A stretch of DNA of 64,000 nt from Euglena gracilis (Eukaryota). A model generated the notes under the pieces. It was not told the DNA's origin. It saw only the letters and a list, made by a program, of their open reading frames with translations, and did not search any database. Shown here one piece after another: positions 33,448-59,106 of the stretch (positions are counted from its first letter, which is position 1; every line of letters begins with the position of its first letter). The translations under genes were made by a program, and so were the position numbers. The stretch is taken from NCBI GenBank assembly GCA_039621445.1, contig CP154954.1:21898954-21962953 (forward strand), read 5' to 3'.

Positions 33448-33469
33448 CTCCATCCCATCAAGCAACTAT

Positions 33470-35185: not shown

Positions 35186-35762
35186 CGTGGTCTCGGGAGA
35201 AGGAGACCTACGCAGTGGTCCTGGCCCTGCAACAATGGGCTTCCTGGATAGGAATGCAACCGGTACTGGTGTTGACGGACCACAAATCCATTGAGGCATG
35301 TGCAACGGAGGCACTGGACACCCCCAGTGGACAAGCTGGACGTAGGGCTAGGTGGCACGAACTGCTTTCGCGCTTCGACATAACCGTAGCATGCGTACCT
35401 GGCAAAGACAACACGGTCGCCGATGCCTTGAGTAGGTGGGCCTACCCCGCCTCACAGGCATTCGCCGACGTGAGTATCCACGGCAGTGAGGAGGACGACC
35501 GACTCAGGAAAGACATCATCAAACAGGAGGTAAAGGAACAGAAAACTTGTATGGTGATCAACGTGGCAGACCTGACACAGGCACAAAAACAGCTTCGAGA
35601 ACCCGTCACTGTGGCCGTCACAACAAGGGCGGGAGCCAAAACGGGGAAGATTCCCCCACAGTGCCTGGTTCAACGGAAAAAGGTAACACCCCTCAAAAAA
35701 ATTCAAAAACACCTCAAAAGCCTGCAAAACCGACAAAGAAATGGGTTGTGATAGGAGACCAC
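35186..35762 (+). pseudogene. Inverted RNase H segment of element A
   Basis: EKETYAVV, LTDHKS and PGKDNTVADALSR read on + while the rest of pol reads on -. Confidence 0.85.
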
Positions 35763-38010
35763 GAGCGAACCTGCCCAGGTGTCAGTTTTCGTGAACAGAA
35801 AGCTACAGGTACTGTTTTTTTGGTCATGGCTGTTGTCGGGTCTGGTTTTTCTGCAGTGTCCTCCGCAAGTTGTTCCAGAGCCGCACCTACGGCTCTGCCA
35901 CTTGCATCCACCCTGAGTATGAACGGTTTGTCTGGATTCACCGTTTGCAGTTTTCAGGCTTCCCAGCAGTTTTTCTTTGATGGTCTGGAAGGCTGTTCTT
36001 TCCTTTTCTCCGAAAAGCACAGGTGTCAGGCTTCCTTTCTTTCCTTGTCCCTTTTTCACTTTCAGTTTTTCCATTAGGTCTGCAGCCAATTCCGCGTACC
36101 CTGGGACATATGAGGCATAGTAGTCTGTGAATCACAGGAATGCCCGCAGGGCTGTGACCTTTTTTGATTCCTCCCATTTTTCCAAGGCCATCAGTTTCCC
36201 AGGTGCTGGTTTTCGTTGTCCACCGCCCAGCACGTGTCCACAGAATTCAAACTCTTTCACGAAAAATATTCATTTCTTGATGTCTGCCACGTGCTGCTGT
36301 TTTTTCAGTGCCTCCATCACCGGTTCAAGGAGGTCTCCAAAGCGACAGCACTCTTGGGTTTCAAGTTTGTCGTGGTCTAATGGTAAGAAAAACTAGCATC
36401 AGGAATGTTGGTTGCAAGAACTGACCACATCTAGATGGGTGCATTCGACCATTTTGGTGGACATGCTCCATGCCCTGGTGGCTGGCGGACCGGTAACGGA
36501 ACAACCGGGTGGACGAGATCCAGCGCGCGATGCAGCGGCTGGAGATCGCACGGACCCACACGGAGGGGGTGCCGTCCCCCCTGGACGGCGGCTCCTTCTC
36601 CGCTGGCCCCCTCCACGAGCGACCTGTTTGTTGTGCTGTGATTGCACAGCATGATCTGATGTCCTTGTCGTGATGTTCAAGGGTTTTGTCTTCTGACCCC
36701 TGCCACACGGTTCCTACGATTATGTCGTCCACGTAGGGGTTTGCAATGTCCTGTACCTCCTCCAGGCTGTACTCGATCACCTGCTGGAAAATCGGTACAC
36801 CGTTTTTCATTCCCATGACCACCACTCTCCACTGTTTTGTTCCCTTAGGTGTGCTGCAGCAGGTGTAGCGTTGGTACTCTGTTCTCAGTGGCACCTGATG
36901 GAACGCGTCTTTGAGGTCCAGTACACTGTACATGGCCCGTTGTCCTTGTTGAACTAGGATGTCTTCTATCCTATGGAGGGGATGGGCGTCTGTGAATGTT
37001 GCCTCGTTCAGTGCTCTGAAATCCACCTCCCCTCTCCATTTTCCACCTTATTTAGCCACCACGAACATGGGGCTGGACCAGTCACTCCTCCCATCTTCCA
37101 CTTTCAGGTCCCTAACCCATTCGTCCATCATGTCGATGAGTGCCTGTCGGCGTTCTCCTGTCATGTGGATGGGTCTTTGCTTTTTTGCCACTGTTCCAGG
37201 TTTCAGCTCGATTTTTCCAAAACCCAGTGGTCCGCGTTCTGGGTGGTCTGGGTAGATTTTGTCTCGCAAAACCACTCCTTCATAGTCCTGCCGCAGTTTT
37301 TTCACCAGTTCAGCCACCTTTTTGCCTTGTGTTTCATGTCCTTCTGGCACCACTACCACACCGTGAACCCTGTCAGATTTATTCGCCGATTTCTGAAGTT
37401 GTTTTGCCAGTGTTTCCAGCGTTGTTTCGTCTTCAAACAGTTTTTCCTCGTCCTGGCCCGCTTCAGCAGGAATCTGCAAATTCATTCCCCGCACTGCCGA
37501 AATGTTCTTCTGAAGTCGGTGTATTTTCCGTTCCAGGGGTTTCTGTTCCTTCAGCTTGTGCCAACTGGACAACAGCCGCAGTGGTTCACCTATGGTAGCT
37601 AATGATTGTAGGTGTGGGAAAATACCCAGTTGGTGTTGTTCCATCCACGGATACCCGAAGATGGCATCCACTTGGATGTCGGCGTCATGGAATGTTCCTA
37701 TGGTGGACAATTCCCTTATTCTGTCCGTGTTGTGCACTCGTGATGAAAACTGTAGTTCCAGTGTGACTTCGTGTAGGCCTCCTTCCATCCTTGTTCCGTC
37801 CGCTGTGATCAGATCCAAGAGTTTTTGCGAACGTCCAGATTTTGTTGGGGAAACAGGTTCTTTTTCACCAGGTTCGCCTGTGCTCCCGTGTCAATTAGAG
37901 CCTGTAGGAACATTTTTTTGCCGTCCGGCAACACAGCATGGACTTTGACGAGGAGTTGCTTTGCTTTCCTTCTGATGGCGACCTGCCCCAGCAGGAGTTC
38001 GGACACCGGT
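35763..38010 (-). pseudogene. Element A protease, reverse transcriptase and start of RNase H
   Basis: ALIDTGAQANL; WSSPMFVVAK, DFRALN, LDLKDAFHQV, YVDDII; FILRVDASG, PVAFCSRKL; frameshifts and a foreign insert of about 330 bp at about 36330-36655. Confidence 0.92.
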
Positions 38011-38214
38011 TCAAACAGTCGTTTTGGAAGCCGAATGTTTTGGTCAGGTTCTGTTTTGTCCGTATCAGAATCTGAGTTTGGCTGTCGACCTGTCTGTTCT
38101 GGGCTGGGCTGTGAGAGCATATTTTGTCGGGCAGTCTGGGCAGGGCTTGGCTGCTGCAGCGGTGTTTGCTGCGCGGCCTGGGCTTGGCTGCTTTGCCGTA
38201 GCCGTTCGTGGAAC

Positions 38215-38795
38215 CCCGCCAGGTCCTGAATCAGTTGCTCTGGGATCCTGAATGTTTTGTAGGCTGGAATGTTGTGTTTGTTGCTGAGTTTCACCAGGTG
38301 ACCTCCACCTGTTCGGGTCAAGGTTCTTGCAGGTTTTTCCGTCACACCGTTTTGCTGGTATCTGCAGGATGTCAGGGCTGCCCCAGATTCGTGTTGATTT
38401 TTTGTAACCCCAGTCTGTGTATTGACAGTAATTCACGTCAATGTACGGGTACGGTTTCATGTAATCTCGTTTTCCCAGGTATCTGTACCTTGGGTTTTCC
38501 AACCACCATTTTTGAGGCTGCAGAATTTCCACAATTTTGAGGGCTTTCTTTGCAAGGCTGTCTCCCTTTTCCAGGTTTCTGCGTCTTGTAGTCAGTGCAA
38601 TGCTGAATTCTGTGCATGGAACTCCACAAACCACCGTGTGGAATTCGCCAGGTTTGAAATTCTTTCTGAAGTCCCAGTCCGGTACGTCCACCTGGTAACC
38701 TGGGGTCTGAGTCAACCGTCACCACCTCAAGACCCATTTTTTCATACACCTTGCTGACCGATTTTGTTCCACAGAACAGGTCCAGCACTTTTGGT
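38215..38795 (-). pseudogene. C5-cytosine DNA methyltransferase domain in element A
   Basis: Motif I VLDLFCGTKS, motif IV GVPCTEFS, motif VI WWLENP, motif VIII YKKSTRIW, C-terminal FRIPEQL; split over three frames. Confidence 0.9.
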
Positions 38796-38899
38796 TTCAG
38801 TTTTTCTGCTTGTATCCCTTTCCTGAATCGTAGCCTTTCCCGTAATTCCGATTCCAGTTCTGGTTCCAGTTTTGAATTGAACCCCAGTTTTGACCTTTC

Positions 38900-40306
38900 C
38901 CCTTTCCTTTGCCTTTGCCCCAGTCTTTTTGCCCCCAGTCTGACCAGTTGGTGACCAGGCTGTTCAGAAACTGCCATGGGAAACCTGCTGGCCTGGAGAA
39001 GGGGGTCTGGGTTTTTCAGGTGTTGGGGTTCGAGAGGTCCACGGAGTTGGGTCGGGATCTGGAAGGGGGTGTCCGCCTTCTGGATTTTGTTTTCTCCTCC
39101 TCCTTGACTTCCCTGACGTAACCCCAGCGGTCCATCCATCGTGCTCTGTTCTCACGAGGTTTGTTCTGCCAGCCGTTGTACCCCCTTCCCAGGGAGGCAG
39201 ACTGTTGTTGGCACCTGAGTTCGGTTTCTACCCTTAGGAACAGTTCGTCCGATGTGAGTTTGGCTTGCACCTGCGTGCACTGTGGTTTTTGTCTAGTCAG
39301 CAACGTTGAACCGTTTTTCATCAGGAGCAGTTCAGCATCTCTGCTGCTGTACAGTTGGATCCTGAAGTTTTGTCCGTCTCGTGCCACCTGAAAATTCTCA
39401 CCTGTAACCACGGTTGCTGCCACCAGGTCACGAACGTCTGCCATTTTTGCATCGGGTACGTTTGCAATGTTCGTGACCACTTTCAGTTTCAGTGTTGGTC
39501 TGTCGTGATTTGTGCGGTCCTGTTCCCTGATGCAGCTTCTGCGGTGCGTTTCAGGCATTTTTTCAGCCACCGGGTTCTAAGCGTCATCCTCTGATGGACT
39601 TTCCAGCCTGCTGTAGAGGAGCTTGAAATGGGCCTCAAACGACTTCCACGCTTCCAGTGTCTTTTTTCCTTCCTTTTTTTGGTCTCAGGTTTTTCAGTTC
39701 GTCTTTGATGGCTGATTGAGTGTCCCACCGTATTTCTGGGACATCCAGTTCCAAAATTCCTGGTATTTTATTTTTCACCGCCTTCCTGTCTGCGTTGTAG
39801 TTCCAGTTTGCTGGCACTGTCCAGGATGCCCTCCAGCGGTGACAGTTTCAGGTCATCGGTCAGGGACCCCTGATCGGCTGACACACGTTGCAGGTACATC
39901 GGAAATTTCACGGCAAAATCTGCGAAATTGCCCTGCAGTGTTGGTCTTACCCTTACCAGGTCTTTTGTCATTGCCGCGCCCACTGGACCCAGCAGCAGCC
40001 CGAAGGATGCTGCCGGGGCCGTTGCCACGGGAGACACCACTCTTTCCACTCCTATGTGGTGGATGGCAGTTTGGGTGGACCCATCTGGGGTCCCACCCAT
40101 GTTGTTGTGGCCGTATTCTGAGTTTCGGATTCGTCTGCCCACATGAACAAGCTCCGAGTCCGGGACTGTGAGTTTTGTTGTGTCGTCACTGGCTGTTGAG
40201 TCGGCTCGGGTGGCTGTGGTGCTGGGCTTGTCGGGTTTGTCGTAAGTGCTGGGCTGGTCGGGACTGCAGTCTGCCGTTGTTCCGTTTGTCGAGTCGGTTG
40301 GGCAAT
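38900..40306 (-). pseudogene. Element A gag, C-terminal part (including an RRM-like segment)
   Basis: ORFs 39768-40586 and 39016-39570; LQGNFADFAVKFPMYL...DDLKLSPLEGILD is similar to the gag core of element B. Confidence 0.7.
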
Positions 40307-40938
40307 AGTTTCCCGAACGATCTTGTTTTTGCCCAGCCTTCACTCCCGGGGGTCCGTGAGGGGGTACCGGCGGGGTGGGGGGTAGGCGCGATGGGCTCTG
40401 GGAAGAGGGGTAGGTTCGGGATATTCCCCTTCCCACGTAGGATTTTTTCCCGGGGAACGAAGGCCCTCCTTTTTCTGGAGTGGTTGGAGGGAGGAGTCCG
40501 GCTTGGCGTCCCTTCCGGCAGTGGGGGGGGTTTAGGAAAAGGCCTGGTTGCCCTCCCCTAGGCTTCTTGTACCCCAGAACCAACACCTTTTTTGCTTGTA
40601 CAGCTTCTCCTGCGCCAGCAGATAACCAATCTTTTGTAATCTTTTGCTGCTCCGCCCTTCAGATTTTGACTTTCTTGAACGTTTGCACTTTCTTGGTTCC
40701 AGCGCTTTTTCTTTGAATTCCCTTGAAAATTGATATATTTTGACCTTGGTCTTGATTCATCAGGCACAATCTTGAATTGAAACCATACGTAAAAAAGAGG
40801 GAGCCTGCAGTGAAAAACATCAGAACAGTTAGGGAGCGGTTTGCGCTATTTTGATGCTCAACTAGCGCAGTAGTTCGCTATATACAACAGCAGGCTGTAA
40901 TAGTGGCAACGGTAGCTGCAGCAGCCGGTCCGCCAACT
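40307..40938 (-). repeat. Element B 3' LTR
   Basis: Direct repeat of 54628-55260; AGTT...AACT termini. Confidence 0.95.
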
Positions 40939-40950
40939 GTCCCCTTCCTT
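40939..40950 (-). promoter_or_regulatory. Element B polypurine tract
   Basis: Minus-strand AAGGAAGGGGAC immediately before the 3' LTR. Confidence 0.8.
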
Positions 40951-41229
40951 GGCCTTGACTCCGGCTGCCGTGCCTGGCCGCTGCCTCTCTCGCCCCCCTG
41001 CCACAGGAGCCTGGCTGGGGCTCCCCGGTCCTTCGTTGCGCCGCTGCCTGGCGTGCCGGCTGCGGACGGGCTCCTGTTGTCCGGGTGGGGGTGGACGCCA
41101 GCCAATCCCTGGCCGTGCTCCGCAGGCGTTCGGTGGGCGTCGCTGCTGACGTCGTCCGGCCTTGCAGGCTGGCCTCAGGAATTGGCTGGCCTCTCCTTGG
41201 CTCTCCTTGGTGTGTGGTCTTGTCTGGGT

Positions 41230-43570
41230 TCGGTTGCCCCACCCCCTTTTGGGCTGGCGGTCCCCCTGGCCGCTTTCCCCTCCCCTTGGGGTCTGGGCGC
41301 CTCCCCCCCTGGGGCCCTTTTTTCAGCGCCCCCCCCACTGTGGTCTAGGCGGCCCCCTGAGCCTTTTTTTGGCGCTCCCCCCTGGGGTCTGGGCGCCCCC
41401 CCCCCCTTGGCCGCTTTTCGGCCCCCCCCCGGGGTCTGGGTGGCCCCCTGGGCCATTCTTCGGCGCCCCCCCTGGGGTGTTTTTGCCGGCCCCCCTGGGC
41501 CGTGCGTGCCCCCCCCGGGTGGTCTTGGGCGGCCCCCCTGGGCCGCTTTTCGGCGCCCCCCCCCCCTGGTCTGGGTGGCCCCCCTGGACCGTTCAACGAG
41601 CGCCCCCGCCCCTGGGGTCGCGGGCGCCCCCCCTTCCCGTGGCCGCTCTTGGGTCCGTCCCCCCGGGGTCGGTCTGGGCGGCCCCCTGACCGCTTTTTTG
41701 TTTCCGGCCCCCCTGGCCCGTGTGTGCCCCCCCCCCCGGGTGGTCGTGTGCGGCCCCGCTGGGCCGTTCTTCGGCGCCCCCCCCCCCTGGGGTCTGGGCG
41801 GCCCCGCTGGGCCTTTTTTTCGCCCCCCCCCCTGGGGTCTGGGCGGCGCCCCTGGGCCGCTTTTCGGCGCCCCCCCCCCCGCCCTTGGGGTCTGGGCGTC
41901 CCGCCTGGGCCGCTTTTTCGGCGCCCCCCCCCCACCCCCTGGGGTCCTGGGTGGCCCCCTGGGCCTTTTTTTCGGCGCCCCCCTCCTCCCTGTGGTTGCG
42001 GGCGGCCCAGCCTGGGCCGCTTTTCGGCGCCCCCCCCCCTTTGGGTCGCTGCCGCCCCCCCCCTGGGCCGCTCTTGTGTCCCCGTCCCCCGGGGTCTGGG
42101 CGGCCCCCCTGGGACGATTTTTTTTTCGGCGGCCCGCCCCTGGGGTCTGGGCGGCCCCCCTGGGCCGCTTTTCAGCCCCACCTGGGGTCTGGGCGGCCCC
42201 CGTGGGCCGCTTTTGGTCCCCCCCCCCCGGGGTCTGGGCGGCCCCCAGGGGCCGGTTTTCGGCGCCCCCCCCCCCCTGGGGTCCTGGGTGGCCCCCCTGG
42301 GCTTTTTTTCGGCGCCCCCCCCCACCCTGGGGTCTGGGCGGCCCCTCTGGGCCGCTTTTCGGCGCCCCCCCCCCCTTGGGTCGCGGGCGGCCCCCCCTGG
42401 GTCTCTCTTCGGTCCCCCCCCCCCGGGGTCTGGGCAGCCCGCAGGCCAACTTCTTCTTTTTTTTGCCGGCCTTCCTGGGCCGTCCGTGCCCCCCCTTCCC
42501 CGGGTGGTCTTGGGCGGCCTCCTGGGCCGTTCTTCGGCGCCCCCCCCCCTGTGGTCTGGGCGGCCCCCCTGGGGCCCTTTTTTCGGCGCCCCCCCCCCTG
42601 GGGTCTGGGCGGCCCCCCTGGGCCGCTTTTCGGCCCCCCTGGGGTCTGAGAGGCCCCCCTGGGACGCTTTTCGGCCCCCCCCCTCCCGGGGTCTTGGCGG
42701 CCCCCTGGGCCGGTTTTCGGCGCCCCCCCCCCCCTGGGCCTTTTTTTCGGCGCCCCCCCCCCCTGTGGTTGCGGGCGGCCCCCCTGGGCCGCTTTTCGGC
42801 GCCCCCCCCCTTTGGGTCGCGGGCGCCCCCCCCTGGGCCGCTCTTGTGTCCCCGCCCCCCGGGGTCTGGGCGGCCCCCCTGGGGCGTTTTTTTTTCGGCG
42901 GCCCCCCCCCTGGGGTCTGGGCGGCCCGGCCCCCCTGGGCCGCTTTTCGGCCCCCCCTGAGGGCTGGGCGCCCCCCCCGCGCCGCTTTTGGTCCCCCCCC
43001 CCGGGGTCTGGGCGGCCCCCCGGCGCGAGTTTTCGGCGCCCCCCCCCTGGGGTCCTGGCTGGCCCCCCTGGGCCTTTTTCTCGGCGCCCCCCCCCCTGGG
43101 GTCTGGGCGGCCCCCCTTGGCCGCTTTTCGGCGCCACCCGTTCTTTGGGTCGCGGGCGTCCCCCCTGGGTCGCTCTTGTGTCCCCCCCTCCCGGGGTCTG
43201 GGCGGCACGCTTGCCGCCTTCTTCTTTTTTTTCGCCGGCCCCCTGGGCCGTGCGTGCCCCCCCCCCCACCCGGGTCAGGGTGGCCCACCTGGGCCGTTCT
43301 TCGGCGCCCCCCCCCCCCCTGGGGTCGCGGGCGGCCCCCCTGGGCCGCTCTTGGGTCCCCCCCCCGGGGGTCGCTCTGGGCGGCCCCTGGCCGCTTTTTT
43401 TTTGCCGGCCCCCCTGGGCCGTGCGTGCCCCCCCCGGGTGGTCTTGGGCGGCCCCCCCTGGGCCGCTCTTGGGTGCCCCTGGTCCCGACCCTTTGGTATT
43501 CCTTGGGTCCCCTCTGGGCCCCCTTTTGTCCCCGGGGTCGGTTGGGTCCCCCCCCCCTTTGGGTCCCCTG
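41230..43570. repeat. GC-rich tandem array (unit about 39-40 bp) in the element B 3' UTR
   Basis: Unit approximately CCCTGGGGTCTGGGCGGCCCCCCTGGGCCGCTTTTCGGCGCCC, with recurring variant units. Confidence 0.95.
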
Positions 43571-44578
43571 GTCGTTTCGCCTCCTTCTTTGCTTGCCTCT
43601 CCCCGGGGCTTTCGACCCCGTGCTTCGTCGCTCTCCTCTCCTCTCCTCTCTGTCTCCTCTTTGGGCTCTCTCCGGTCCCCCTTCCCCTGGCTCGGCCTCG
43701 GCCGGGCTCACCGCGACTCAGCTTCGGTTGGGGAAGAGAAGGGAGGGGTGGCACACCAGTGTAAGAGGTTTGGGTTGGTGGGTGAGAAACCTCCACAGTA
43801 TCCATCAGGTCAGTAGGGGGTGAGCCAGCTGCCGCCGACGTCACAGCGTACCCTCACGACGACAGCACAGAATGATCATCTGCTCAGCTCCTGCGCGCGC
43901 GCTGCCAGCCGCCTGTCCTGAGCGTCGAAGGCGAGGGAAAAGAACAGAAAGATGAACGGGAACACGACCACCATGGAGAAAATCCCAGTTTGACGCCAGG
44001 CCTTTTCCATTTCCCCATGGGGTGTGGGTAGGGGGCAGGGGGTGGCCTCCTTGTTGGGAAGTCGCACTGTGGCCATGCAGGGGCACGCCTCTGGTGGTGG
44101 TGCCCCCTCGCCGCAGGGACGGGTCATGGGGGTGCACGGGAACGGGGCCCCTGGTGGAAGGAGGGGATCCCGAGCTGGGGCGTCCCTGCGGGTCGACACG
44201 CGGGGGCGGCGACATCTACCCGTGGGCGCAGGGGAGACTCGGGGACCGGGTCTCTGAGGTACGCCTGGTATGCGGGGTGGGTACGCATGGTACATGGGGA
44301 GTGATAGGGTGGTGGACGGTGGGGCAGGGGCAAGGGAAGCGCGGGAGAGCGCATCCCTCGCAGCGTACGGATCGTACGGAGGCGGGGCGCTCGCCGCTCG
44401 CGGGTTGCCGGTGGACCCTAACCGGGTACCTGGGGTGGGCCGCTTGTTGGGGACCCGCCGGGCTAGCGTCTCCTCTGTCTTCTTGGTCTCGATCTCCTTC
44501 ATCTGCTCCATCACCTTAATCATCGTCTCCATCAGAATCATAACCTTCTCGAGATACATCTCCGTAATCGGTATCCTG

Positions 44579-46150
44579 CTACACCCACTCCTCTGGAGGT
44601 TCTTCCCAGGACATCCCAAACTCCTTCTCCTTCTCCTTCTCGATCTCCACGGCGTGGCAGATGGCGATGTGGGCTTCCTCCGGGAACCCCGAGAGGTACT
44701 TCATGATGTCGTCCTTGATGTCGTGATCGACGAAGTACGACACGATCGGCGAGGCGTACCGGTGGAAGAAACGCCGCAGCGGCTCCCACGTCTTCTCCTC
44801 GTACCCCATCCACTTGACGAGGAACTCGAGGTCGCCGCTGGCATCGCGCCGGTGGGTGACCACCGCCTCCACCTCCCACTCGTCCAGCCAGGAACCCTCC
44901 TCCGGCCTGGATTGGCAGAAGAGGCGGAGATGCGGCCCGGAGATTGGAAGAGGCGAAGCTGTGGCCCCATGATGGCTGGATCGAGGCGGTAACTGTTGAT
45001 TTGGGATCGGTGGGCCACCTGCTTCCGGCCATCCTCCATCTGGAGCATGTACGTGTGCTCACTGGTGCGCTCTGCCACCACGCACGGCCCGATCCAGTAC
45101 ATCTCCAGCTTCTCGCCGGTGCGGGTGCGCGGGCGGAGGTACCAGACCTTGTCGTTGGTCTCCATCTCCAGCAGCTCTTTCCTCTGCTAGTTGACCGTCT
45201 CGGCCGTCTTGGCGTGCTCCTCGTTCAAGATCTTCGCGACACGATGATCGATGTCCTGCATGCGCTCGAAGAAGGCCACCGCGTCCTCGGCCCGCGTGGG
45301 CGGCTGGTACGGCACCCCGCCGTACCACCGCTCGAGGCCGAAGAGCACCTGGAAGGGGCTCAGGCCGCTGGGCCCAGTACTGTCGTGCATGGTCCGCAGG
45401 GCCCGCGGCAGCGCCTCCGCCCACGCCACGCCCTCGCCGCCTTCATCTTCCTCAGCCGCTTCTGGATATGCACGCCGAGGACCTCCGCACGGGCATTGCC
45501 TTCGTGGTGGTATGCTTGGGAGAAGGCATTGCGCACCCCCAGTCTTGCGCACATTGCCCTCCACCAGGCCCCCATGAAGTGGGGGCCCCGGTCCGACGTG
45601 ATGACGCTTGGCACGCCGAACTGCGCCAACTGCTCATACATCGCCCTCGCCACCGCCTCCGCCGTTAGCCCGCGGGTGTAGTGCACGGTCGCGATCGCCC
45701 ATCCGGAGTGCCGATCGATGCATGATGCGAACACATTCACCAGCATGCGGCCCTGCACCTCCACCTCCGGCATCTGGAACAGATCCACGCTTACCGAACA
45801 CATCACATGGGGCAGCACTGGCGTGGACGTGATGCGGAGCCAGAGGGGTTGGTGGAGGTGCTCTGACGCCTGGCAGAACTCGTGCACAGCCAGAATCTTG
45901 CCTGCCGGCTCGCGTGCTCGGGAGAGCACCGCAAACTGGAAGTTCCGGCTGGCCTCATCGAGGACTCGCTCACCACCGACGTGCCCCGACGCCCGAGGCT
46001 GCTCTCGGATTGCCTGCTCGGTCAGGGCATCCGGCACGCACCAGACGGAATCCTTCACCAGCTTGCCTGCCTCCTTTCGGTAGCCGGTGGGCCATGGCCG
46101 GCCGCGCTTGATGGCCTGCCACGGCCCTTTGAACGTTGGGCACTTCTCAT
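44579..46150 (-). pseudogene. Element B integrase plus chromodomain
   Basis: VSVDLF, IDRHSG, TSDRGPHF, ARAE, YWIGPCVV; chromodomain EAVVTHRRDASGDLEFLVKWMGYEEKTWEP. Confidence 0.92.
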
Positions 46151-46859
46151 ATGCCTCACTCCAGTCCATCGCCATCAGGTCCTGGTCCTCTTCTTGCGGG
46201 ACTGCGGCCTGGGTGGCTGCAGCTGGCGGCACGGCGGCTGCCACAGGCGGCACGGCGGCTGCCACAGGCGGTACGGCGGGAGGGCTTGGGTGCCCCCCCA
46301 CCTTGGGTGGGCCGGCCGACGGCACCGCTCCCTTGGCTGGCTTCTTCGAGACGGCGGCACCGGGCGGCTTGGCGGCCGCCTGGCTTCGGGTGGTCACGGC
46401 GTTTGCGGACGGTGGGATGCTGCGTGCACTGGCCGCGGGCGGAGATGATACTTGCTCGGCGGACGGGGATCGCATGGCGGGTGCTGCTGGTGCCGCTTCT
46501 GGCCGTACGGAAAACCGCACCGTGCGTGGTGTGGCGGGCTGCTGCTGCTGCTTGGGCTGTGAGGACAACGGTGCTGCAGTCGCAGCCGGCGAGTTTGGGT
46601 TCGGTGGGGGCGGCGGTCGGATTGCCGGTCGTCCGGCTGCCGGAATCCCGGCGTCGCCGCCTCGGCTGCCGGTGTCCCGGACGATGCCGCTGTGACTGCC
46701 GGTGTCCCGGCTGGCGACGATGGGGATGCCGCATTTGCGGTCGGGAGGAGGCACACCTTGTCCACCGGGTGCACTGCCTTCGGGCAGCTGCGCTCCGCGG
46801 CCTTCTCCTCTCGGATCTGCTGCTCCATCTCCTCGGCGTCCGCTGCCGTCCCGTGCCAG

Positions 46860-48005
46860 CAGAGTCTCGGTACTCCTGGCTGGCCGGGTACGCCCACCGC
46901 GACAGCGCGTCCCCCACCTCGTTTTTCTCCCCCGGCACGTAGACCACCTGCACCATGTGCTCGTTCAGCTTCGAGTGCCACCTTGCCCGCCGGCCTTGCG
47001 GTCCCGATCCCCGGGACACGTGCTCCTTGTACCAGCTCTCCAGGGACAGGTGGTCCGTCAGGACGAGGACCTTCTGCCCGGTGATGTAGCCGCCCCACTT
47101 GTCCAGCGCGCTCACCACCGCGTACGTCTCCTTGTCGCAGGTGTCCCACCGGAGCCGCTGCCCCTCCGTCAGCTTCCTGCTCATGAAGCCCACCGCCACC
47201 GTCGCCCCGTGCTTCAGGAGGTCCTCCACCGAGGGGATGCCCTCCACCTGGGGCAGCTGCTCCAGCACGGCGCCCCCCGCATAGTCGGAGGCGTCCGTGC
47301 GCAGCACGAACGGCTTGTTCATGTCCACGTGCCACAGCTCCAGGTCCGCCACCAGCGCTGCCTTCAGCTTCTCGAAGGCCTCCAGCTCGGCCGCGGACCA
47401 CCCGATGGGGTGCTTGCTGCCCGCCCGGGACAAATCCCGCGGCAGCTTCAGCTTCTCTTGCAGGGGGGCGGCCAGCTCCGAGTACATACGTACATACCCC
47501 GAATGATAATTGCAGATCCGAGAAAGGCGCGCAAACTCGTCACAGTGGCCGGGGGTTGCCACCGCTGCACCGCCGCCAGCTTGCCGCTCGCGGGCACGCG
47601 CTTGCCCTCCCCCAGCACGTGCCCCACGAACGCCGCCCTCTTGCGGAACAGCTGCGCCTTCTTCTTATCAGCCACCCACCGATCCGCCTCCAGCGTCCGC
47701 AGGGTCTCGCGCAGATCCCCCGCGTGCCGCCGGATCAGCTCCTCGTCGGTCCACCCCGGCAGCCGCCTCGTGCTCACCAGGATGTCATCGAAGTAGGGGT
47801 GGGTATGGGCGGAGACGTTGCGGCAGGTCGCGTCGATGTCCCTTTGGAGCAGCGCCGAACCGACGTTGATGCCCTGGGGCACCACGGTCCACTGCCAGAG
47901 GCCGCCTGGCAGGTGGATGTTGGTGATGGGTCGGCATTCCTCCGCCATGGCCACCTGGTGGAAGGCGTCCCGCAGGCCCACCGTCGACAAGATCTCGCAC
48001 TTCGC
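46860..48005 (-). pseudogene. Element B RT core and RNase H
   Basis: LRDAFHQV, VPQG, YFDDILV; LRTDASDYA, DKETYAVV, LTDHLSL, NEVGDALSR. Confidence 0.92.
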
Positions 48006-50081
48006 CTACTCGCTCACGATGTCGTCCGTCAGCGGTAGGGTGTAGGAGTCCATCTGCAGCATCTTGTTGGTCAAGCTGTAGTCGCACACCACCCTCCACT
48101 TGCCCGACTTCTTGCGGATCGGGAAGGCGGCCGCCCTCCACGGCCCCCGCCCCGCCTCCAGCTTGCCGTCCGCCAGGCACTCCCGCTCCATCTCCCTCAG
48201 AGCCTCCAGCCTCTCGCCATTGAGGTTGATGATCCGGCCCACCACCGGGGTTGCCCCCGGCTTCAGCCTCAGCACCGCGTTCCCATGGGTTCCCCCGCGC
48301 CGGGGGACACGGCCACACCCGCTCACGGAACACCCGGCCTTCGAACTCGTTGATGATCTCGTTCCGCAGCTGCCCGCCAAGGGATGGTCGACATCGTCTA
48401 CTGTCTCCACCACCCCTCGCACCGCCTTCGCTGCTTCTTCGGCCTCCTTCAGCATCATTGCCACTTCTTGGACTGCTGCTTCGTCCGTGGTCAGCTGCCA
48501 CATCTTCTTCACCGTGGAGACGTAGCCGTCCAGCTCGTCTTCGTCTGCATCGCCATCTTCCTCCTTCTTCTCTTTGTCTCCACACCGCCTCGGGATCCAC
48601 TTGGGGTCCGCGTGGAGCTGCAAGTTGTCGCGCCACGGCTGCACATCCAGCCGGTTCTCCCGGAGCCACGGATACCCCAGAATGAGGTCCGTGCTGACGC
48701 AGCCGTCATACGCCACCACCTTCATCGTCCACGTCCTCGGTCTCCGCTCCTCGTCGTCGGTCTGGGCCGCGAACGAAAGCTTCAGCTCTGCTTCTCGTTG
48801 TCCTCCGGGTAGCGCCTCTCCACTCACCGTGCGTAGCACCAAGGGTCTCGCCGCCGCGTGGAACACCGACTCCGGGAACAGGTCCTTCTTCACGAGGGAG
48901 GTCGCCCCCGTATCGATCAAGGCCTTCGCCTGGATCTTCATCCCGCCTGCCTCCACCTCCACGTCCATCAGCAGCTGGTAGCACCCTCCACGATGCTCCA
49001 TCCGACCGACCGTGATCGGCCGGTTCGGTAGGTGCTGCCACGGCTGCACCACCACCTTCCGCACCTTCTTCGCCTCCTCCGCCGCCGCCACTTCTTCCCG
49101 TGCCTCCTCCCCCAGGCACAGGTACCGCACCACCCCCTCCGGGATGCGGTAGGCCTCCTCCCTCGTGCACCTGCGCTCGCCGCCACTGCCTCCCAGCTGC
49201 AGCCGGTGTCGTCGCACGCCATCTGGTCCTTCCACCATACTGCCGCACTTTCCACCACAGATGACGTCGTCCAGCTCCTTCGCCATCGCGTCGCTGACCC
49301 AGAAGCGTGTCGGCTTGCGATACCCGTACTCCGCGAAGCGGCAGTAGTCCACACCCACATACCGCACTCCGCGCAGGACTCGTCGCCACCGCAGCAAGCC
49401 GAACCTCGGGTTTTCAATCCACCACCGCGTAGGCGCCAAGTACTCCACCAGCTCCCTCGTGGCCTTCACCACCGCGTCCGCCATGCGGAGCCTGTTCTTG
49501 CGGGTGGTGAGGGCTGTGGAGTACTCGGTACAGGGCGGGGACGCCGCGATGACGTCGAAGTGTCCGGGAGCGTATTGCTCCCAGTACCTCCACTTCATCA
49601 CGTCGGCCACGATGTCCGGCTTCCACTTCTCATCCCAGTCCACGCTGATCACCTTCAAGCCCATCTTCTCCAGCGCTCTTCTCACACTTCCCGTTCTGGA
49701 GAACAGGTCCAGCGCCCATCTTTCCTTCTCTTTCTTCGCCGCCTTCTCGGCCGGCTCTGTCTTCTCCTCCTCCGCCGGTGCTTGTCTTTCTTGTGGTGGT
49801 GTCTTGTGGAGACTTGGTGATGCCTTCGGTGATGATGTTGTCGGCGTTGTTGATGGCAATGACGGAGATCTTGGTAGATTCGATCTCGATACTGCCGTCG
49901 TTGCCGATGCCGTCGGCGTGGATGAGGACGATGATGTCTTCGTTGCCGGTGCCGTCCGCGTTGATAAGGACGATGATGTCACCTTCGCCTTCGGCACACT
50001 CGGTGATGTTGATGGGGACGATAGTGTCGGCTTCGCATTCGACACCTGCCGCAGGCAGGGTCTCTCCCCTTCCTTTGGCAA
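48006..50081 (-). CDS. Element B polyprotein segment: Ser/Thr linker, C5 DNA methyltransferase (about 49115-49720), protease and RT N-terminus in one ORF
   Basis: ALDLFSRTGS, SPPCTEYS, WWIENP, VDYCRF, YRKPTRFW, YRIPE; then ALIDTGA and AFPIRKKSGKWRVVCDYSLTN. Confidence 0.92.
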   Translation of the reverse strand: MPKEGERPCLRQVSNAKPTLSSPSTSPSVPKAKVTSSSLSTRTAPATKTSSSSSTPTASATTAVSRSNLPRSPSLPSTTPTTSSPKASPSLHKTPPQERQAPAEEEKTEPAEKAAKKEKERWALDLFSRTGSVRRALEKMGLKVISVDWDEKWKPDIVADVMKWRYWEQYAPGHFDVIAASPPCTEYSTALTTRKNRLRMADAVVKATRELVEYLAPTRWWIENPRFGLLRWRRVLRGVRYVGVDYCRFAEYGYRKPTRFWVSDAMAKELDDVICGGKCGSMVEGPDGVRRHRLQLGGSGGERRCTREEAYRIPEGVVRYLCLGEEAREEVAAAEEAKKVRKVVVQPWQHLPNRPITVGRMEHRGGCYQLLMDVEVEAGGMKIQAKALIDTGATSLVKKDLFPESVFHAAARPLVLRTVSGEALPGGQREAELKLSFAAQTDDEERRPRTWTMKVVAYDGCVSTDLILGYPWLRENRLDVQPWRDNLQLHADPKWIPRRCGDKEKKEEDGDADEDELDGYVSTVKKMWQLTTDEAAVQEVAMMLKEAEEAAKAVRGVVETVDDVDHPLAGSCGTRSSTSSKAGCSVSGCGRVPRRGGTHGNAVLRLKPGATPVVGRIINLNGERLEALREMERECLADGKLEAGRGPWRAAAFPIRKKSGKWRVVCDYSLTNKMLQMDSYTLPLTDDIVSE

Positions 50082-50143
50082 CTTCCTGCCTCTTCTCTTT
50101 CTTTGGACCAGCCGCCACCCTTCTTCTTCTCACTCCACCGCTC

Positions 50144-53100
50144 TTACCAGCCTCGTCCTTGGTGCGGATGTCGGCTGGGGGGATGACTGCCGGTCCAGGC
50201 CCTTCCCCTCGGGACCTGGACGGCCCCGTCATTGCTGCGTCGATGTCGTCCCGGCCGCTTCTCCTTTGCCGGAACCCTTCTCACCGCCTTTGCCTTTCCC
50301 CTTACCCTTGCCTTTGCCTTTTCAACCATCTTACCCCTTGGCTTCGCCGCCTGTCCGGTCCATCCTTCATTCCACGGCTGCTGGTTGCCTTTGACTCGGC
50401 CAGCCCAGCCTTGTGCATCGTTGGAGTCCTTGGTCTCGTCCACCTCCTTCGCTTCACCTTCCTTTTCTTTCTTCACCGCTTCCTTCCTCACATCCTTGAT
50501 GTTGGACTCCTCCTGGACTCCTTGATTGGCCTTGGTGTCGGTCTCATCATCTTCATCTTCGACATCCACTTCCCGCTGCCATCTTGTGGGTGCCGCCGGT
50601 TTGCCGTGGGCCCGCTCGGGGTCGCCTATGGTGGCGGCCCGCTGGTCCACCCTCAGCCACCGCACCATGATGTCGTTGACTTGGGTGGCCGTGAACTCCA
50701 CGGTGTCGGGGGCCACCCGGACGATGGCTCCACCGGACAGCTTCTGCCAGTCTTACACCGCCTTGATGGCTGCCCGGTGGTCGTCATCCGCTGGGACCAC
50801 CTTGATTCTTCTGCACTGGCCATCCACTTTCTTCGGCACGACACCCGTCTCCTCCACCACCATCTCCGTCGCCTCCGCCACCGTCACATCCTCCGGTAGG
50901 CCTTCCAGGACCAGCGCCTCATACTGCCTTTTTGAAGGTGTCGGAATCTGCACCTTTTTTTTTCTTCTGCCTTTTTGTCCCCCTCCCCATCATCAGCGAC
51001 CTTCGGCAGCTGCTCCAACACCCAAGCCGTGTAAGCCTCCTCAACTTCTTGCTTGAATTTTGCATTCACCTGGGCCTTGTCGCAGGCCTGGGCATATGGA
51101 GTTGTGTTTGGGGGGGACGTACAGCCCAAAATTGATGGACCTCAGCTTTTCCGCCACAGAACGGTGGAAATGACTAGGTGCCCCATCCACTGCATACAAA
51201 CACCGGCCGCGTCCCTTCATGCTCAAAGCCCCCGGCAGTATTGGCCTCACAATCTCCAGCATCACCTTCTCATTTGTTTTACCTTTTGCAGCCACAGTCT
51301 GCAGAAGCCGGGGTATGCGTTGCTTCGACAAATCCTTCTCAACACCCGAGCCTCCCTTGTACACAATGGTGGGGTGAAAGCGGCAAACACGACCGAAAAC
51401 TAGGCCTTGGCTAGCAGGTAAGACTTCGACGGCATAGTGCAGATACACAGTGACATGAGATCAGACTTTCATTCACCCGCATTTCAGGAAAAAATCCAAT
51501 TATTTTGGAGGTCCACTGTTGAACTCAGAAGTCTCAGAAATTGCAGAAATTTCGAAAATTTTGATAATTCTCCTTAAAAATCATGACCACGGCGCCGATC
51601 CTCTTCATGGGCCAGCCGCTTCCTCCATGGCTGGCAAAGCTGGTACACCACCAGGCGGGCTAGCTCTACGTCCGTCATGTCCCCGAATTGCATCGCCAGC
51701 GCCTTGGCGTTGGCGAAGTACTCCCGCCACTCGCGCTCCGTCAGCTTGCCCCGCGTCACCACCTTGAGGTGACGGAGCTTCCTTCGTAGTGCTTCTCGGT
51801 CGTCTCCACCCAGCTCCAGGTCCGGCCTCGCCCACAGCTCCTCGAACGGCATCTCGGGGTAAGTCTCCACCATCAGGTCGATGTGCAACGCCGTCGCCTC
51901 GTCCACAGTACTCCGCAGCAGCGCCACCCGCTGCGCCTCGCTGAGGAGGGGGACCATCCCCTCCACCTCGCGGAGGTAGGGGAGCCATCGCCGCCTCCAT
52001 TGGGGCCACTCCTCGGCGTTACCCGAGAACCGTCCCAGATGCCTCCCCCCGAGCGCATCCGGGAGGTGCGGTGGCAGTATCTGCAGCTGGGGAGCCCACA
52101 GCGGCAGGGTTTTTGCTTGGACTTCTCGGATGGCGGTTCCCCTCACGGATGCGGGCACGCTCGCCCCCGCACGCATGAGGAGCATCGGTGCTGCATTCGT
52201 CGGCACCGGACGGGACCGCACGAGTCGCAGCTCCGGTCGAAGCCGCGACGCGGGCGGGTTGGCTGGGTCCGCCGGTGTGGCCGCATTCGCAGCCGGCACC
52301 GCGGACTGCACCACCGGCGGGGGCCCACAGGCAGGGTGGGCAGATGGCTGCACGGCTGGCTGGAGAGACATCCCGGTGGCGAACGCCACCGCGTGTGTCT
52401 GATGCATGGCATGCGATGGGCTGGGATGGACGGCTTGCTGGTACACCGTGCCTTCGGTACTCTGCGGATCGGTGCCTTCGGCACCCAGCGGCTGGCTTGA
52501 CACGGGCACAGAGGCTTGGGAGAGGGGTCGGACTTGGACTCGGACAGATTGGGCAGCAGCCACCGGCACCGGAACCGGTGGTGACGGCTTGGACATGCCG
52601 GCGGTCGCTGCTTGCGGGTGTGATGCCGGATGCTGCGCTGCTCGGTGTGCTGGTGGGGCGGCGGTGCTGGGGGGACGCGATGCCGGCGCAGGCGGATGCG
52701 AGGACAGCGCGGACTGCTGCACTTGCGCGCGGGACGGTTGCGGATAGGACGGTGCTCGTTGGACCGCGGAGGAAGACGGTTGGCGCTCGGAGACGGACAG
52801 CGGCTCTGCTTGGATGACTGCGGTGCTTGGTCGCCGGGGGAATGCATACGCGGATGGCGGCATGGATATCCATTCTCTTGCCGGGCGCGCGGTGGTTGAC
52901 GATGAGGACCGCTCAGCCGGGGCTCGGGCCGCCCCCACGGATGCAGGATGGGGGGCGGTTTGGTAGGGATCGGCTGCCCCGCGTGTTGGCGGCGTGGTCT
53001 GAGCCGCCGCGGACACCGGGGGTCCCCCGGACGGGCGGAGACCGGACATCTTGACAGACCACTGCTTGATCTCCTCCTTCGCCATCCGTATCTCCCTGAA

Positions 53101-59103: not shown

Positions 59104-59106
59104 TGC

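What the first reader, a model, noticed from the sequence alone, without database searches (positions are those of the whole stretch)
38215..49720. Two divergent chromodomain Gypsy retrotransposons each encode a C5-cytosine DNA methyltransferase between gag and protease
Seen: element A (38215-38795) and element B (49115-49720) both have a domain of about 200 aa with C5-MTase motifs I (DLFxxTxS), IV (PCTE), VI (ENP) and VIII (KxTRxW), plus a shared CxxxC-like insert. In B it is in frame with protease and RT. The two elements differ strongly in base composition, LTR length and LTR termini, so the domain looks like an old, retained part of a clade. Established: DNMT-carrying retrotransposons have been reported in dinoflagellates and charophytes. 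Inference: this is a compact, viral or phage-like DNMT in a probable euglenid, which I do not recall being described. It could be cut from the polyprotein, packaged, and methylate the new cDNA or the insertion site. Together with the integrase chromodomain, that would give a reader-plus-writer epigenetic module.
Basis: partly seen in the sequence, partly recalled or inferred. Interest (0 to 1): 0.92.

Follow-up and report, generated by a model that had tools for sequence, protein, structure and literature searches.

The report
Gypsy retrotransposons carrying a compact cytosine methyltransferase
Three decayed Gypsy-type jumping genes in this window each carry a very small, virus-like DNA cytosine methyltransferase just ahead of their protease, a real and old module, but one closely related to retrotransposon methyltransferases that a 2026 preprint already describes.

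Summary
Both domains lie on the minus strand: B at 49095-49712, A at 38205-38788. A third remnant lies at 22365-22661 (+).

The domain is a real C5-cytosine methyltransferase. An AlphaFold model has pLDDT 94.4 and matches DNMT3A and M.HhaI at Z 14. The best viral match is a 218-aa Tetraselmis virus 1 enzyme (TM 0.84). It has about 200 residues. A conserved Cys3-His cluster sits where the target-recognition domain would be.

B is a 15-kb chromovirus with LTRs, PBS and PPT, and is probably nested inside A. In B the domain is in frame with protease and RT.

None of the window copies is intact. A has two frameshifts. B has Arg at a SAM-loop Gly that 265 of 266 relatives keep.

In my tree, all 27 retroelement-linked domains form one clade of 54 tips. 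That clade holds 0 of 68 viral tips and is nested among standalone and virophage/PLV/giant-virus forms. It also holds proteins that join this domain to a Dam adenine methylase. That is the "EpiLTR" design reported in 2026 for Euglena gracilis and Cymbomonas. No Dam domain is found in the window.

Verdict: a DNMT-only variant of a known kind. The host was not identified. What the enzyme does (self-methylation of new cDNA) is inferred, not shown.

The parts
49095..49712 (-). Element B: compact C5-cytosine MTase domain (206 aa, P0006). It is in frame with the protease. It has Arg at the otherwise invariant motif I Gly (codon AGA, 49695-49697).
48006..50129 (-). Element B: 707-aa open frame holding a basic/Ser-rich linker, the MTase, the aspartic protease (about 48606-49034, ALIDTGAT) and the N-terminal part of RT
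46843..48594 (-). Element B: RT (about 47517-48594) and RNase H (about 46843-47517). The frame breaks near 48292 and 46861.
44660..46178 (-). Element B: integrase (rve, SH3_Tf2-1-like) and C-terminal chromodomain (about 44660-44887)
54628..55260 (-). Element B 5' LTR. The PBS (TGGTAGCAGAGG on the minus strand) lies at 54617-54628.
40307..40938 (-). Element B 3' LTR (94.8% identical to the 5' LTR). The polypurine tract lies at about 40939-40954.
51574..53388 (-). Element B upstream ORF. Its C-terminal ~170 aa are helical and gag-like by position only. The ORF continues at 50144-50989 once the copy-specific insertion is skipped.
   Evidence: no significant gag match
50918..51584 (.). ~666-bp stretch present in this copy of B but skipped in contigs of four runs. 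It is an insertion that interrupts the upstream ORF.
   Evidence: joints 50917/50918 to 51584/51588; low depth in the 51034-51330 bin
41237..43479 (.). Element B: GC-rich (76%) degenerate repeat block between the chromodomain and the PPT
38205..38788 (-). Element A: the same MTase domain in three frame pieces (38699-38788, 38305-38700, 38205-38309). It has two frameshifts but all catalytic residues are present.
33546..37997 (-). Element A: protease (37845-37997), RT (36652-37830), RNase H (35952-36329, plus a piece inverted to the + strand at 35068-35640), integrase (34175-34930) and chromodomain (33546-33653)
59103..59258 (-). Probable 5' LTR of element A (short, TG...CA). It is followed by the PBS GGTAGCAGAGG at 59092-59102. 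On this reading B is nested inside A.
31815..31973 (-). Probable 3' LTR of element A (93% identical to 59103-59258)
22365..22661 (+). Element C: heavily decayed remnant of the same MTase (motifs VI to VIII region). It lies inside a short LTR element (LTRs 18675-19189 and 24902-25413) in which no RT was detected.

Best explanation
SHOWN. The window holds three LTR retrotransposons of one chromovirus (Ty3/Gypsy with chromodomain) lineage. A ~200-aa C5-cytosine methyltransferase domain sits immediately N-terminal to the protease as the first recognisable domain of the pol frame.

The domain belongs to a large family of minimal C5-MTases. These keep motifs I, II, IV (PC), VI (ENP), VIII and X. In place of the usual target-recognition domain they have a ~50-residue segment with a conserved Cys3-His cluster. 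That this cluster binds zinc is my inference.

Standalone members of the family are found in virophage, polinton-like-virus and giant-virus contigs.

INFERRED FROM MY TREE. The retroelement copies derive from one capture of such a viral or standalone gene. The module then diversified, partly alongside a Dam adenine methylase (the 'EpiLTR' design). B belongs to a DNMT-only branch. A is closest to a Dam-carrying polyprotein but has no Dam itself.

SHOWN. The copies here are dead. A has 2 frameshifts and an internal inversion. B has a Gly-to-Arg change in the SAM loop, several frame breaks in pol and a 666-bp insertion. C is a remnant. The B family itself is very abundant in the DNA runs of the coded organism.

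INFERRED, NOT SHOWN (mechanism). In intact copies the domain is made as part of the polyprotein. It is freed by the protease or stays attached to the upstream protein, and so travels with the particle. It then methylates cytosines of the newly made cDNA or of the new insertion. New copies would then carry the host's default 5mC state, while the chromodomain steers integration.
For: Fold and motifs:
- The AF2 model has pLDDT 94.4 and pTM 0.90.
- All rows listed by Foldseek against the PDB are C5-MTases (DIM2, DNMT1, MET1, DNMT3A/B/C, HhaI, HaeIII), best E 2.5e-7, with 149 matches at E <= 0.001.
- VIA-align gives Z 14.2 for DNMT3A (190 aligned, rmsd 4.5) and Z 14.0 for M.HhaI (187 aligned, rmsd 3.5), over model residues 1-203.
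- A family profile against PDB sequences hits DNMT1, DNMT2 and HhaI, best E 2e-4.

Viral affinity:
- Best BFVD match is Tetraselmis virus 1, 218 aa: E 5.8e-17, TM 0.84/0.80, 30% identity.
- The nearest Atlas clusters are 213-219-aa viral cytosine MTases.
- 298 of 450 IMG/VR candidate stretches encode a relative.
- Neighbouring genes in 10 of the 80 loci kept include Sputnik_MCP, MCP_V20_C, AEP_C962R, Capsid_N and D5_N.

Retroelement context:
- P0228 (2513 aa) reads MTase, RT, RNase H, rve, Chromo. P0166, P0113, P0110 and P0111 have the MTase upstream of PR/RT.
- Both A and B align to P0228 from the MTase through to the chromodomain.
- B has LTRs, a PBS and a PPT.

One clade:
- All 25 PR/RT- or Dam-linked database proteins plus A and B fall in a clade of 54 of 266 tips (SH-like support 0.893). 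The clade holds 0 of the 68 IMG/VR tips and sits 10 nodes deep from the midpoint root, among standalone and viral forms.

Constraint within the 54-tip clade:
- Catalytic Cys: 54 of 54.
- ENP Glu: 54 of 54.
- Motif II Asp: 54 of 54.
- Lys133: 54 of 54.
- Cys124, Cys156 and His169: 54 of 54 each.
- Cys152: 53 of 54.
- Motif I Gly: 53 of 54. The exception is window B.

Abundance: 7757 contigs (X1) and 5843 contigs (X2) lie on 44500-53400 at 85% likeness or more.

Precedent for the mechanism: retrotransposon DNMTs methylated CG de novo, and self-methylation of cDNA was proposed (PMC5890265, abstract and sections 6 and 9 read).

Host 5mC is plausible. CpG o/e is 0.67 over the window and 0.50-0.66 in old element A, against 0.94-0.99 in younger B. 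TpG+CpA is in excess.
Against: - No activity, cleavage or packaging data exist for any member of this compact family, as far as I could find.
- All three window copies are defective, so nothing here can act.
- Pfam PF00145 is at or below threshold. Single-sequence phmmer against the PDB gave only E = 1.
- The tree uses about 185 columns, FastTree and a midpoint root. Its tips came from searches seeded with element B. I dropped 73 of 338 hits with partial domains. The 27 unlabelled short or long tips inside the 'TE' clade are only presumed to be TE fragments.
- The upstream ORF could not be shown to be gag.
- dN/dS could not be computed, because no DNA of close relatives was recovered.
- RNA evidence is limited to contigs in RNA-labelled libraries, which may contain DNA.
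Confidence: 0.72

Rival explanations
1. The domain is an RNA m5C methyltransferase, as DNMT2 is. It would act on the element's genomic RNA or on the tRNA primer, not on DNA.
For: DNMT2/tRNA(Cyt38) MTases are among the best sequence-profile hits (1g55 and 9hgm, E about 3e-4). The usual DNA target-recognition domain is missing. Both A and B prime from the same tRNA 3' end.
Against: The best structural matches are DNA MTases (DNMT3, HhaI, DNMT1, DIM2). Standalone relatives sit in dsDNA-virus contigs next to D12 and N6_N4 DNA MTases. In some polyproteins the domain is fused to a DNA adenine MTase.
Confidence: 0.1
2. The enzyme does not mark its own cDNA. It acts in trans, for example on host DNA, on rival elements or on incoming viral DNA. 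Given its copy number, it could be a major writer of the host's genome-wide CG methylation, as proposed for Symbiodinium.
For: The B family is very abundant. The window shows CpG depletion with TpG/CpA excess. Symbiodinium has hundreds of TE-borne DNMTs and a near-fully CG-methylated genome (PMC5890265 abstract and section 6). The E. gracilis genome is described as having 5mC as the near-default state at CG (preprint passages).
Against: The host is not identified. No methylome was examined here. The copies in this window are inactive.
Confidence: 0.15
3. The domain is a hitch-hiking relic without function, or an artefact of nested insertion or assembly that placed a viral MTase gene inside retrotransposons.
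For: All three window copies are broken. The preprint warns that chimeric TEs and assembly artefacts occur in E. gracilis (passage).
Against: The same order (MTase, then PR, then RT) occurs in frame in B and in independent metagenome polyproteins P0110, P0111, P0113, P0166 and P0228. A and B are 38% identical, yet both have the domain at the same place. Catalytic residues are kept in 53-54 of 54 clade members.
Confidence: 0.03

Closest known systems
EpiLTRs of Euglena gracilis and Cymbomonas tetramitiformis (bioRxiv 10.64898/2026.05.21.726589; sections 6, 8 and 12 and passages read)
   Same: They are LTR/chromovirus-like retrotransposons with a chromodomain and a C5-DNMT. The authors read them as an 'epigenetic toolkit'. 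In my tree, proteins that join this compact MTase to a Dam domain (P0145, P0251, P0216, P0012, P0011, P0120, P0186) lie in the same clade as A and B. A is 56% identical (100 of 177) to the Dam-linked P0145.
   Different: No Dam or other N6 adenine MTase is detectable in A, B, C or their flanks. The full-length relative of B, P0228, has none either. The preprint places its DNMT as sister to DNMT4. I find the nearest relatives among compact viral MTases. I could not see the preprint's sequences or Supplementary Fig. 2D, so identity of the two DNMT modules is inferred, not shown.
KnitGypsy-Dnmt3, SymbioDIRS-Dnmt3 and SymbioLINE-Dnmt (de Mendoza et al. 2018, PMC5890265; sections 6 and 9 read)
   Same: A C5-DNMT is built into a retrotransposon coding region. 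In Klebsormidium it is in the Pol of a Gypsy element. Catalytic residues are conserved, and self-methylation of cDNA is the proposed role.
   Different: Those are Dnmt3-type domains, or an orphan Symbiodinium lineage, in DIRS, LINE or Gypsy elements. Here the domain is a ~200-aa enzyme with no full target-recognition domain. Its best match is a giant-virus protein (TM 0.84, 30% identity), against DNMT3 at TMq 0.55-0.60 and 15-19% identity. It sits upstream of the protease.
Compact viral C5-MTases, e.g. Tetraselmis virus 1 putative cytosine DNA methyltransferase A0A2P0VN45 (218 aa), and relatives in virophage/PLV-like IMG/VR contigs
   Same: Same length, same fold and the same Cys3-His segment. 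Identity is 30-39%.
   Different: Those are free-standing genes of dsDNA viruses. Here the domain is fused into a retroelement polyprotein.
M.HhaI and the DNMT3A catalytic domain (solved structures)
   Same: The catalytic Rossmann core and motifs I, IV, VI, VIII and X align (Z 14).
   Different: Sequence identity is 14-18%. The large target-recognition domain is absent, which is why TMq is only about 0.45-0.6.

Membership tests
C5-cytosine DNA methyltransferase (PF00145 superfamily) | Motif I FxGxG SAM loop | tested here: met
   The family consensus is LDLFSGTGS. A has DLFCGTKS. B has DLFSRTGS, so the first Gly is lost in this one copy (265 of 266 have Gly).
C5-cytosine DNA methyltransferase (PF00145 superfamily) | Motif IV Pro-Cys with the catalytic Cys, and motif VI ENV-type Glu | tested here: met
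   PPCTEYS in B and VPCTEFS in A; ENP in both. Cys is present in 266 of 266 domains and Glu in 266 of 266.
C5-cytosine DNA methyltransferase (PF00145 superfamily) | C5-MTase fold | tested here: met
   pLDDT 94.4. Foldseek and VIA-align top rows are all C5-MTases, with Z up to 14.2.
C5-cytosine DNA methyltransferase (PF00145 superfamily) | Pfam gathering score | tested here: inconclusive
   The piece of A scores 22.8 bits against a cut-off of 22. B scores 15.5 bits, below the cut-off. Many relatives pass.
C5-cytosine DNA methyltransferase (PF00145 superfamily) | Target-recognition domain between motifs VIII and IX | tested here: not met
   There are only about 50 residues there, with conserved C152, C156 and H169 (plus C124). 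No HhaI-like TRD is present.
C5-cytosine DNA methyltransferase (PF00145 superfamily) | Cytosine-5 methylation of DNA | not testable with these tools
   This needs expression followed by 5mC mapping.
Chromovirus (Ty3/Gypsy with chromodomain) | PR, RT, RNase H and integrase in that order, with a C-terminal chromodomain | tested here: met
   Pfam finds RVT_1, RT_RNaseH, rve and Chromo. The collinear tblastn match to P0228 holds for both A and B.
Chromovirus (Ty3/Gypsy with chromodomain) | LTRs with PBS and PPT | tested here: met
   B has 632-bp LTRs at 94.8% identity, PBS TGGTAGCAGAGG and a PPT. A probably has a 160-bp LTR pair at 93% identity with the same PBS core. No clear target-site duplication was seen for either.
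Chromovirus (Ty3/Gypsy with chromodomain) | Recognisable gag/capsid | tested here: inconclusive
   There is no Pfam gag hit even at E <= 5. The model of the upstream ORF has pLDDT 57. Foldseek finds 0 matches at E <= 0.001, though 8 of the top 12 weak rows are Gag, Arc, PNMA or MOAP1 capsids.
EpiLTR (Dam + DNMT + chromodomain LTR element) | Dam-type adenine MTase domain in the element | tested here: not met
   No Dam, D12 or N6_N4 family appears among 112 + 123 ORFs scanned. The best relaxed tblastn hit with three Dam segments has E 0.12.
EpiLTR (Dam + DNMT + chromodomain LTR element) | DNMT of the EpiLTR clade | tested here: inconclusive
   Dam-fused homologues share the clade with A and B. 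The preprint's own sequences and supplementary tree could not be seen.
Dnmt3-type retrotransposon DNMTs (KnitGypsy, SymbioDIRS) | DNMT domain groups with eukaryotic Dnmt3 | tested here: inconclusive
   No Dnmt3 sequences were placed in my tree. By structure and identity the domain is much closer to the compact viral enzyme (TM 0.84, 30%) than to DNMT3A/B (TMq 0.55-0.60, 15-19%).

The most novel reading that the evidence does not exclude
A minimal C5-MTase of virophage, PLV or giant-virus type was captured once by a chromovirus ancestor. It became the founding 'writer' module of a widespread retroelement lineage that later gained or lost Dam (the EpiLTRs). In the host of this window the DNMT-only branch has amplified to thousands of copies.
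Probability: 0.25. Interest if true: 0.75.

Novelty: new variant of a known kind. Interest (0 to 1): 0.5.

Why it matters
Retrotransposons that carry their own DNA methyltransferase reverse the usual picture of methylation as a host weapon against transposons.

This window adds three points to what I found in print:
1. The DNMT of this chromovirus lineage is a minimal ~200-aa enzyme. Its nearest relatives are in viruses of eukaryotes, not in cellular DNMT families.
2. DNMT-only elements exist beside the Dam+DNMT 'EpiLTRs' and share their MTase clade. This helps to order the gains and losses of the two writers.
3. The family is very abundant in its host.

A 200-aa C5-MTase with a Cys3-His mini-module in place of a target-recognition domain would also be an attractive small enzyme to characterise.

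Tried and rejected
- Plus-strand reading of the given coordinates gives no protein-like frames.
- Searching the window's own genome: none is held.
- Single-sequence phmmer against the PDB gave only E = 1. The profile search worked.
- LTR search for A within 29000-40400 found nothing. The pair appeared only in a whole-window self-comparison.
- Rfam and tRNA scans of the window found nothing, so they give no host clue.
- The second Atlas call gave only generic protease/RT look-alikes and no host taxon.
- Cluster look-up gave no organism names.
No DNA of close relatives was recovered, so no dN/dS could be computed.
- Read laying: the variant table was truncated (541 rows not shown). I therefore could not see what other copies carry at B's motif I codon, nor count changes by codon position.
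- Among the 40 rows shown, only 5 of 17 window-T/A versus others-C/G differences lie at CpG sites. This is inconclusive for deamination.
- Gag confirmation failed. Pfam was empty at E <= 5. Only 3 homologues were found, none with a Pfam domain. The model had low confidence and gave no significant fold match.
- The N-terminal 620 aa of P0228 are low-complexity and do not look like gag.
- Dam remnants were sought with relaxed tblastn and none was credible.
- Literature: searches found no paper describing a DNMT-only chromovirus or this compact MTase in a retroelement. Supplements were closed, so the preprint's Supplementary Fig. 2D and tables may already cover it.
- RNA-library contigs (X16, X17) overlapping the MTase are not proof of transcription.

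Full report
OBSERVATION

The plus-strand frames at the given coordinates are not protein-like. The elements lie on the minus strand.

In element B, window 48006-50129(-) is one 707-aa open frame. Residues 141-346 (window 49095-49712, P0006) read LDLFSRTGS ... SPPCTEYS ... ENP ... RKPTRFW ... CGGKC ... H ... YRIPEGVVRYL. The frame then continues into the protease (ALIDTGAT) and the start of RT.

In element A the same domain lies at 38205-38788(-). It is split over three frames by two frameshifts. All motifs are still present: DLFCGTKS, VPCTEFS, ENP, KKSTRIW, CDGKTC ... H.

tblastn also shows a third, badly decayed remnant at 22365-22661(+).

The signal is far above chance:
- 103 of 566 candidates match at E <= 0.001 among 5.8 billion proteins, best 2.6e-79.
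- 12 of 1007 longer candidates match.
- A profile of 44 family members (A1) finds 11296 cluster representatives at E <= 0.001, 4512 at E <= 1e-10 and 1256 at E <= 1e-30.

Pfam PF00145 is only marginal: 22.8 bits against a cut-off of 22 for the piece of A, and 15.5 bits for B.

WHAT THE DOMAIN IS

An AlphaFold2 model of B's domain, built with alignment A1, has pLDDT 94.4 and pTM 0.90.

Foldseek against the PDB gives 149 matches at E <= 0.001. Every listed row is a C5-MTase: DIM2, DNMT1, MET1, DNMT3A/B/C, HhaI or HaeIII. The best E is 2.5e-7. TMq is only 0.44-0.60 because the targets carry a large target-recognition domain that this protein lacks.

VIA-align gives Z 14.2 for DNMT3A (190 aligned, rmsd 4.5) and Z 14.0 for M.HhaI (187 aligned, rmsd 3.5), over model residues 1-203. 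The profile search of PDB sequences hits DNMT1, DNMT2 and HhaI, best E 2e-4.

In the alignment the invariant or nearly invariant columns are the motif I Phe and Gly, the motif II Asp, the Pro-Cys, the ENP, Lys133, Thr135, and C124, C152, C156 and H169. These four Cys/His residues lie in or next to the short segment that replaces the target-recognition domain. I read them as a zinc site, which is inference.

WHERE THE DOMAIN COMES FROM

The best BFVD match is the 218-aa putative cytosine MTase of Tetraselmis virus 1: E 5.8e-17, TM 0.84/0.80, rmsd 2.6, 30% identity. The nearest Atlas clusters are 213-219-aa viral cytosine MTases.

In IMG/VR, 298 of 450 candidate stretches encode a relative, and the best 80 were kept at 30-39% identity. 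I then took 10 of those 80 loci and scanned 91 of their 100 ORFs of at least 110 aa, leaving out 9 that overlapped longer ORFs. Pfam found Sputnik_MCP_1st, MCP_V20_C, AEP_C962R, Capsid_N, D5_N, PriCT_2 and D12/N6_N4 MTases. These are hallmark genes of virophages, polinton-like viruses and giant viruses, not of tailed phages.

RETROELEMENT CONTEXT

Element B is a complete LTR retrotransposon on the minus strand.
- LTRs lie at 40307-40938 and 54628-55260, 94.8% identical over 634 columns.
- The PBS, TGGTAGCAGAGG, lies at 54617-54628. That it matches initiator tRNA-Met is my recollection, not a call.
- A polypurine tract lies next to the 3' LTR.
- An upstream ORF lies at 51574-53388.
- Then follow the MTase, PR, RT, RNase H, integrase and chromodomain (Pfam; collinear match to the 2513-aa P0228).
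- A 2.2-kb GC-rich repeat block precedes the PPT.

Element A has the same order from the MTase to the chromodomain. One RNase H piece is inverted (35068-35640). A 160-bp direct repeat at 31815-31973 and 59103-59258 is 93% identical and has TG...CA ends. The upper copy is followed by GGTAGCAGAGG. I therefore read these repeats as A's LTRs, with B nested inside A. This is inference, and I saw no clear target-site duplication.

Element C has LTRs at 18675-19189 and 24902-25413, 95% identical. It keeps only the MTase remnant and no RT.

Outside the window, several metagenome polyproteins carry the same domain upstream of PR/RT: P0110, P0111, P0113, P0166 and P0228, the last reading MTase, RT, RNase H, rve, Chromo.

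The 'gag' label could not be confirmed:
- Pfam found nothing at E <= 5.
- Only 3 homologues were found, none with a Pfam domain.
- The model had pLDDT 57.
- Foldseek found 0 matches at E <= 0.001, although 8 of the top 12 weak rows are retroviral, Arc or PNMA capsids.

STATE OF THE COPIES

A has two frameshifts inside the domain.

B has Arg (AGA) where 265 of 266 family domains have Gly. If the ancestral codon was GGA, the change is a transition at a CpG site. That reading is inference. B's pol frame is also broken.

Laying contigs of four coded runs on 44500-53400 showed the following:
- 7757 contigs (X1), 5843 (X2), 59 (X17) and 43 (X16) were laid at 85% likeness or more.
- Indels carried by part of the contigs occur at 48292, 46861 and 45434. 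These are the places where this copy changes frame.
- Joints skip 50918-51584 in X1, X2, X16 and X17. That 666-bp stretch is therefore an insertion carried by this copy.

Homologue P0264 bridges the same gap at the protein level.

So B is a slightly decayed member of a very abundant family. The X16 and X17 contigs come from RNA-labelled libraries and overlap the MTase, but they do not prove transcription.

CpG o/e is 0.94-0.99 in B's coding parts, 0.50-0.66 in A and 0.67 over the window, with an excess of TpG+CpA. This fits a host that methylates CpG and an older age for A. It is not proof.

PHYLOGENY

hmmsearch with the A1 profile found the domain in 338 sequences (database proteins plus ORFs of the IMG/VR loci). 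I kept the 265 with a near-complete domain and dropped 73 partial ones. I added A, read through with X at each frameshift.

I labelled proteins 'RT-linked' or 'Dam-linked' by blastp to the non-MTase parts of P0228 and to three Dam segments.

The FastTree result (LG+gamma, 185 columns, midpoint root) was as follows:
- All 25 labelled proteins (18 RT, 4 Dam, 3 Dam+RT) plus A and B fall in one clade of 54 tips, with support 0.893.
- That clade has 0 of the 68 IMG/VR tips.
- It lies 10 nodes deep among standalone and viral sequences.
- B groups with P0110, P0007, P0111, P0113 and P0228, where no Dam was detected.
- A groups with P0197, the Dam-carrying P0145 and P0149.
- A and B are 38% identical (66 of 173). 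A and P0145 are 56% identical (100 of 177). B and P0110 are 63% identical (111 of 175).

Within the clade the catalytic residues are kept in 53-54 of 54 members.

Caveats: the tips come from searches seeded with B, the alignment is short, the root is a midpoint, and the unlabelled tips in the clade are only presumed to be TE fragments.

COMPARISON WITH THE LITERATURE

de Mendoza et al. 2018 (PMC5890265; abstract and sections 6 and 9 read) describe SymbioLINE-Dnmt, SymbioDIRS-Dnmt3 and KnitGypsy-Dnmt3. They show de novo CG methylation by retrotransposon DNMTs.

The preprint 10.64898/2026.05.21.726589 (sections 6, 8 and 12 and passages read) screened eukaryotes starting from Dam domains. It reports 'EpiLTRs' in E. 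gracilis and Cymbomonas: LTR elements with a chromodomain, a Dam and a DNMT. It places their DNMT as sister to DNMT4.

In my data the compact MTase is fused to Pfam Dam (PF05869) in P0145, P0251 and P0012. By blastp it is also Dam-linked in P0216, P0011, P0120 and P0186. All of these lie in the same clade as A and B. The module here is therefore very probably the EpiLTR DNMT module or its close kin. I could not check this against the preprint's sequences, because supplements are closed.

The window itself has no Dam:
- None among 112 minus-strand ORFs from 32450-55679.
- None among 123 ORFs of the flanks and of element C.
- The best relaxed tblastn hit has E 0.12.

Searches found no paper on DNMT-only chromoviruses or on this compact enzyme in a retroelement.

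MECHANISM (INFERRED)

In intact copies the MTase is translated as the first pol domain. It lies next to the upstream structural protein, so it should be present in the particle where the cDNA is made. It would put 5mC on the cDNA or on the new insertion. The chromodomain on the integrase would choose the chromatin.

The rival readings are an RNA m5C enzyme, a writer acting in trans on the genome, and a relic or artefact. They are weighed in their own section.

VERDICT

This is a DNMT-only variant of a known kind of element. Its new points are the minimal viral-type enzyme, the single-capture clade shared with Dam+DNMT elements, and the high copy number. The host was not identified.

Noticed in passing
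window 50918-51584: A ~666-bp stretch inside element B's upstream ORF is skipped by contigs of four runs and has far lower depth. It is a copy-specific insertion. By eye, its minus-strand ORF (51041-51460) recalls a DDE transposase fragment, but Pfam finds nothing.
   Followed up: partly
window 41237-43479: A GC-rich (76%) block of degenerate repeats lies inside element B between the chromodomain and the PPT. It is open in several frames. Its function is unknown.
   Followed up: no
window 18675-25413 and 59288-62114: Element C is a short LTR element (515-bp LTRs, 95% identical) with a zinc-knuckle-like ORF (21565-22410) and an MTase remnant but no RT. It may be a non-autonomous derivative. A second, inverted partial copy (84% over 2.9 kb) lies at 59288-62114.
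   Followed up: partly
window 35068-35640: The RNase H part of element A is inverted relative to the rest of the element.
   Followed up: no
window flanks (among ORFs of 27000-32400, 18600-25500 and 55183-64000): A Tc5/pogo-type transposase (HTH_Tnp_Tc5 at E 1.6e-8 and DDE_1 at E 4.9e-8) is present somewhere in these flanks. The call reports families, not which ORF.
   Followed up: no
window 28764-30530 (-): This is the longest intact ORF outside the elements (589 aa). It is Pro/Ala-rich at the N-terminus, has a Cys/His/Trp-rich C-terminal half, and has no Pfam family.
   Followed up: no
window 54617-54628 and 59092-59102: A and B are very divergent, with different LTR lengths and ends. Yet both have the same primer-binding core, GGTAGCAGAGG.
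   Followed up: partly
proteins P0071, P0183: The same compact MTase also occurs fused to an N-terminal PHD finger (PF00628), outside the retroelement clade (P0183). This is another reader-plus-writer combination.
   Followed up: no
loci L001-L055 (10 sampled): In virophage/PLV-like contigs the compact C5-MTase is accompanied by D12 and N6_N4 adenine/N4 MTases and by a TET-associated glycosyltransferase family.
   Followed up: no
run X16 on window 44500-53400: A leaf-litter metatranscriptome library holds contigs about 90-97% identical to most of element B, including the MTase (record 10, 49384-49878, 25 differences).
   Followed up: no
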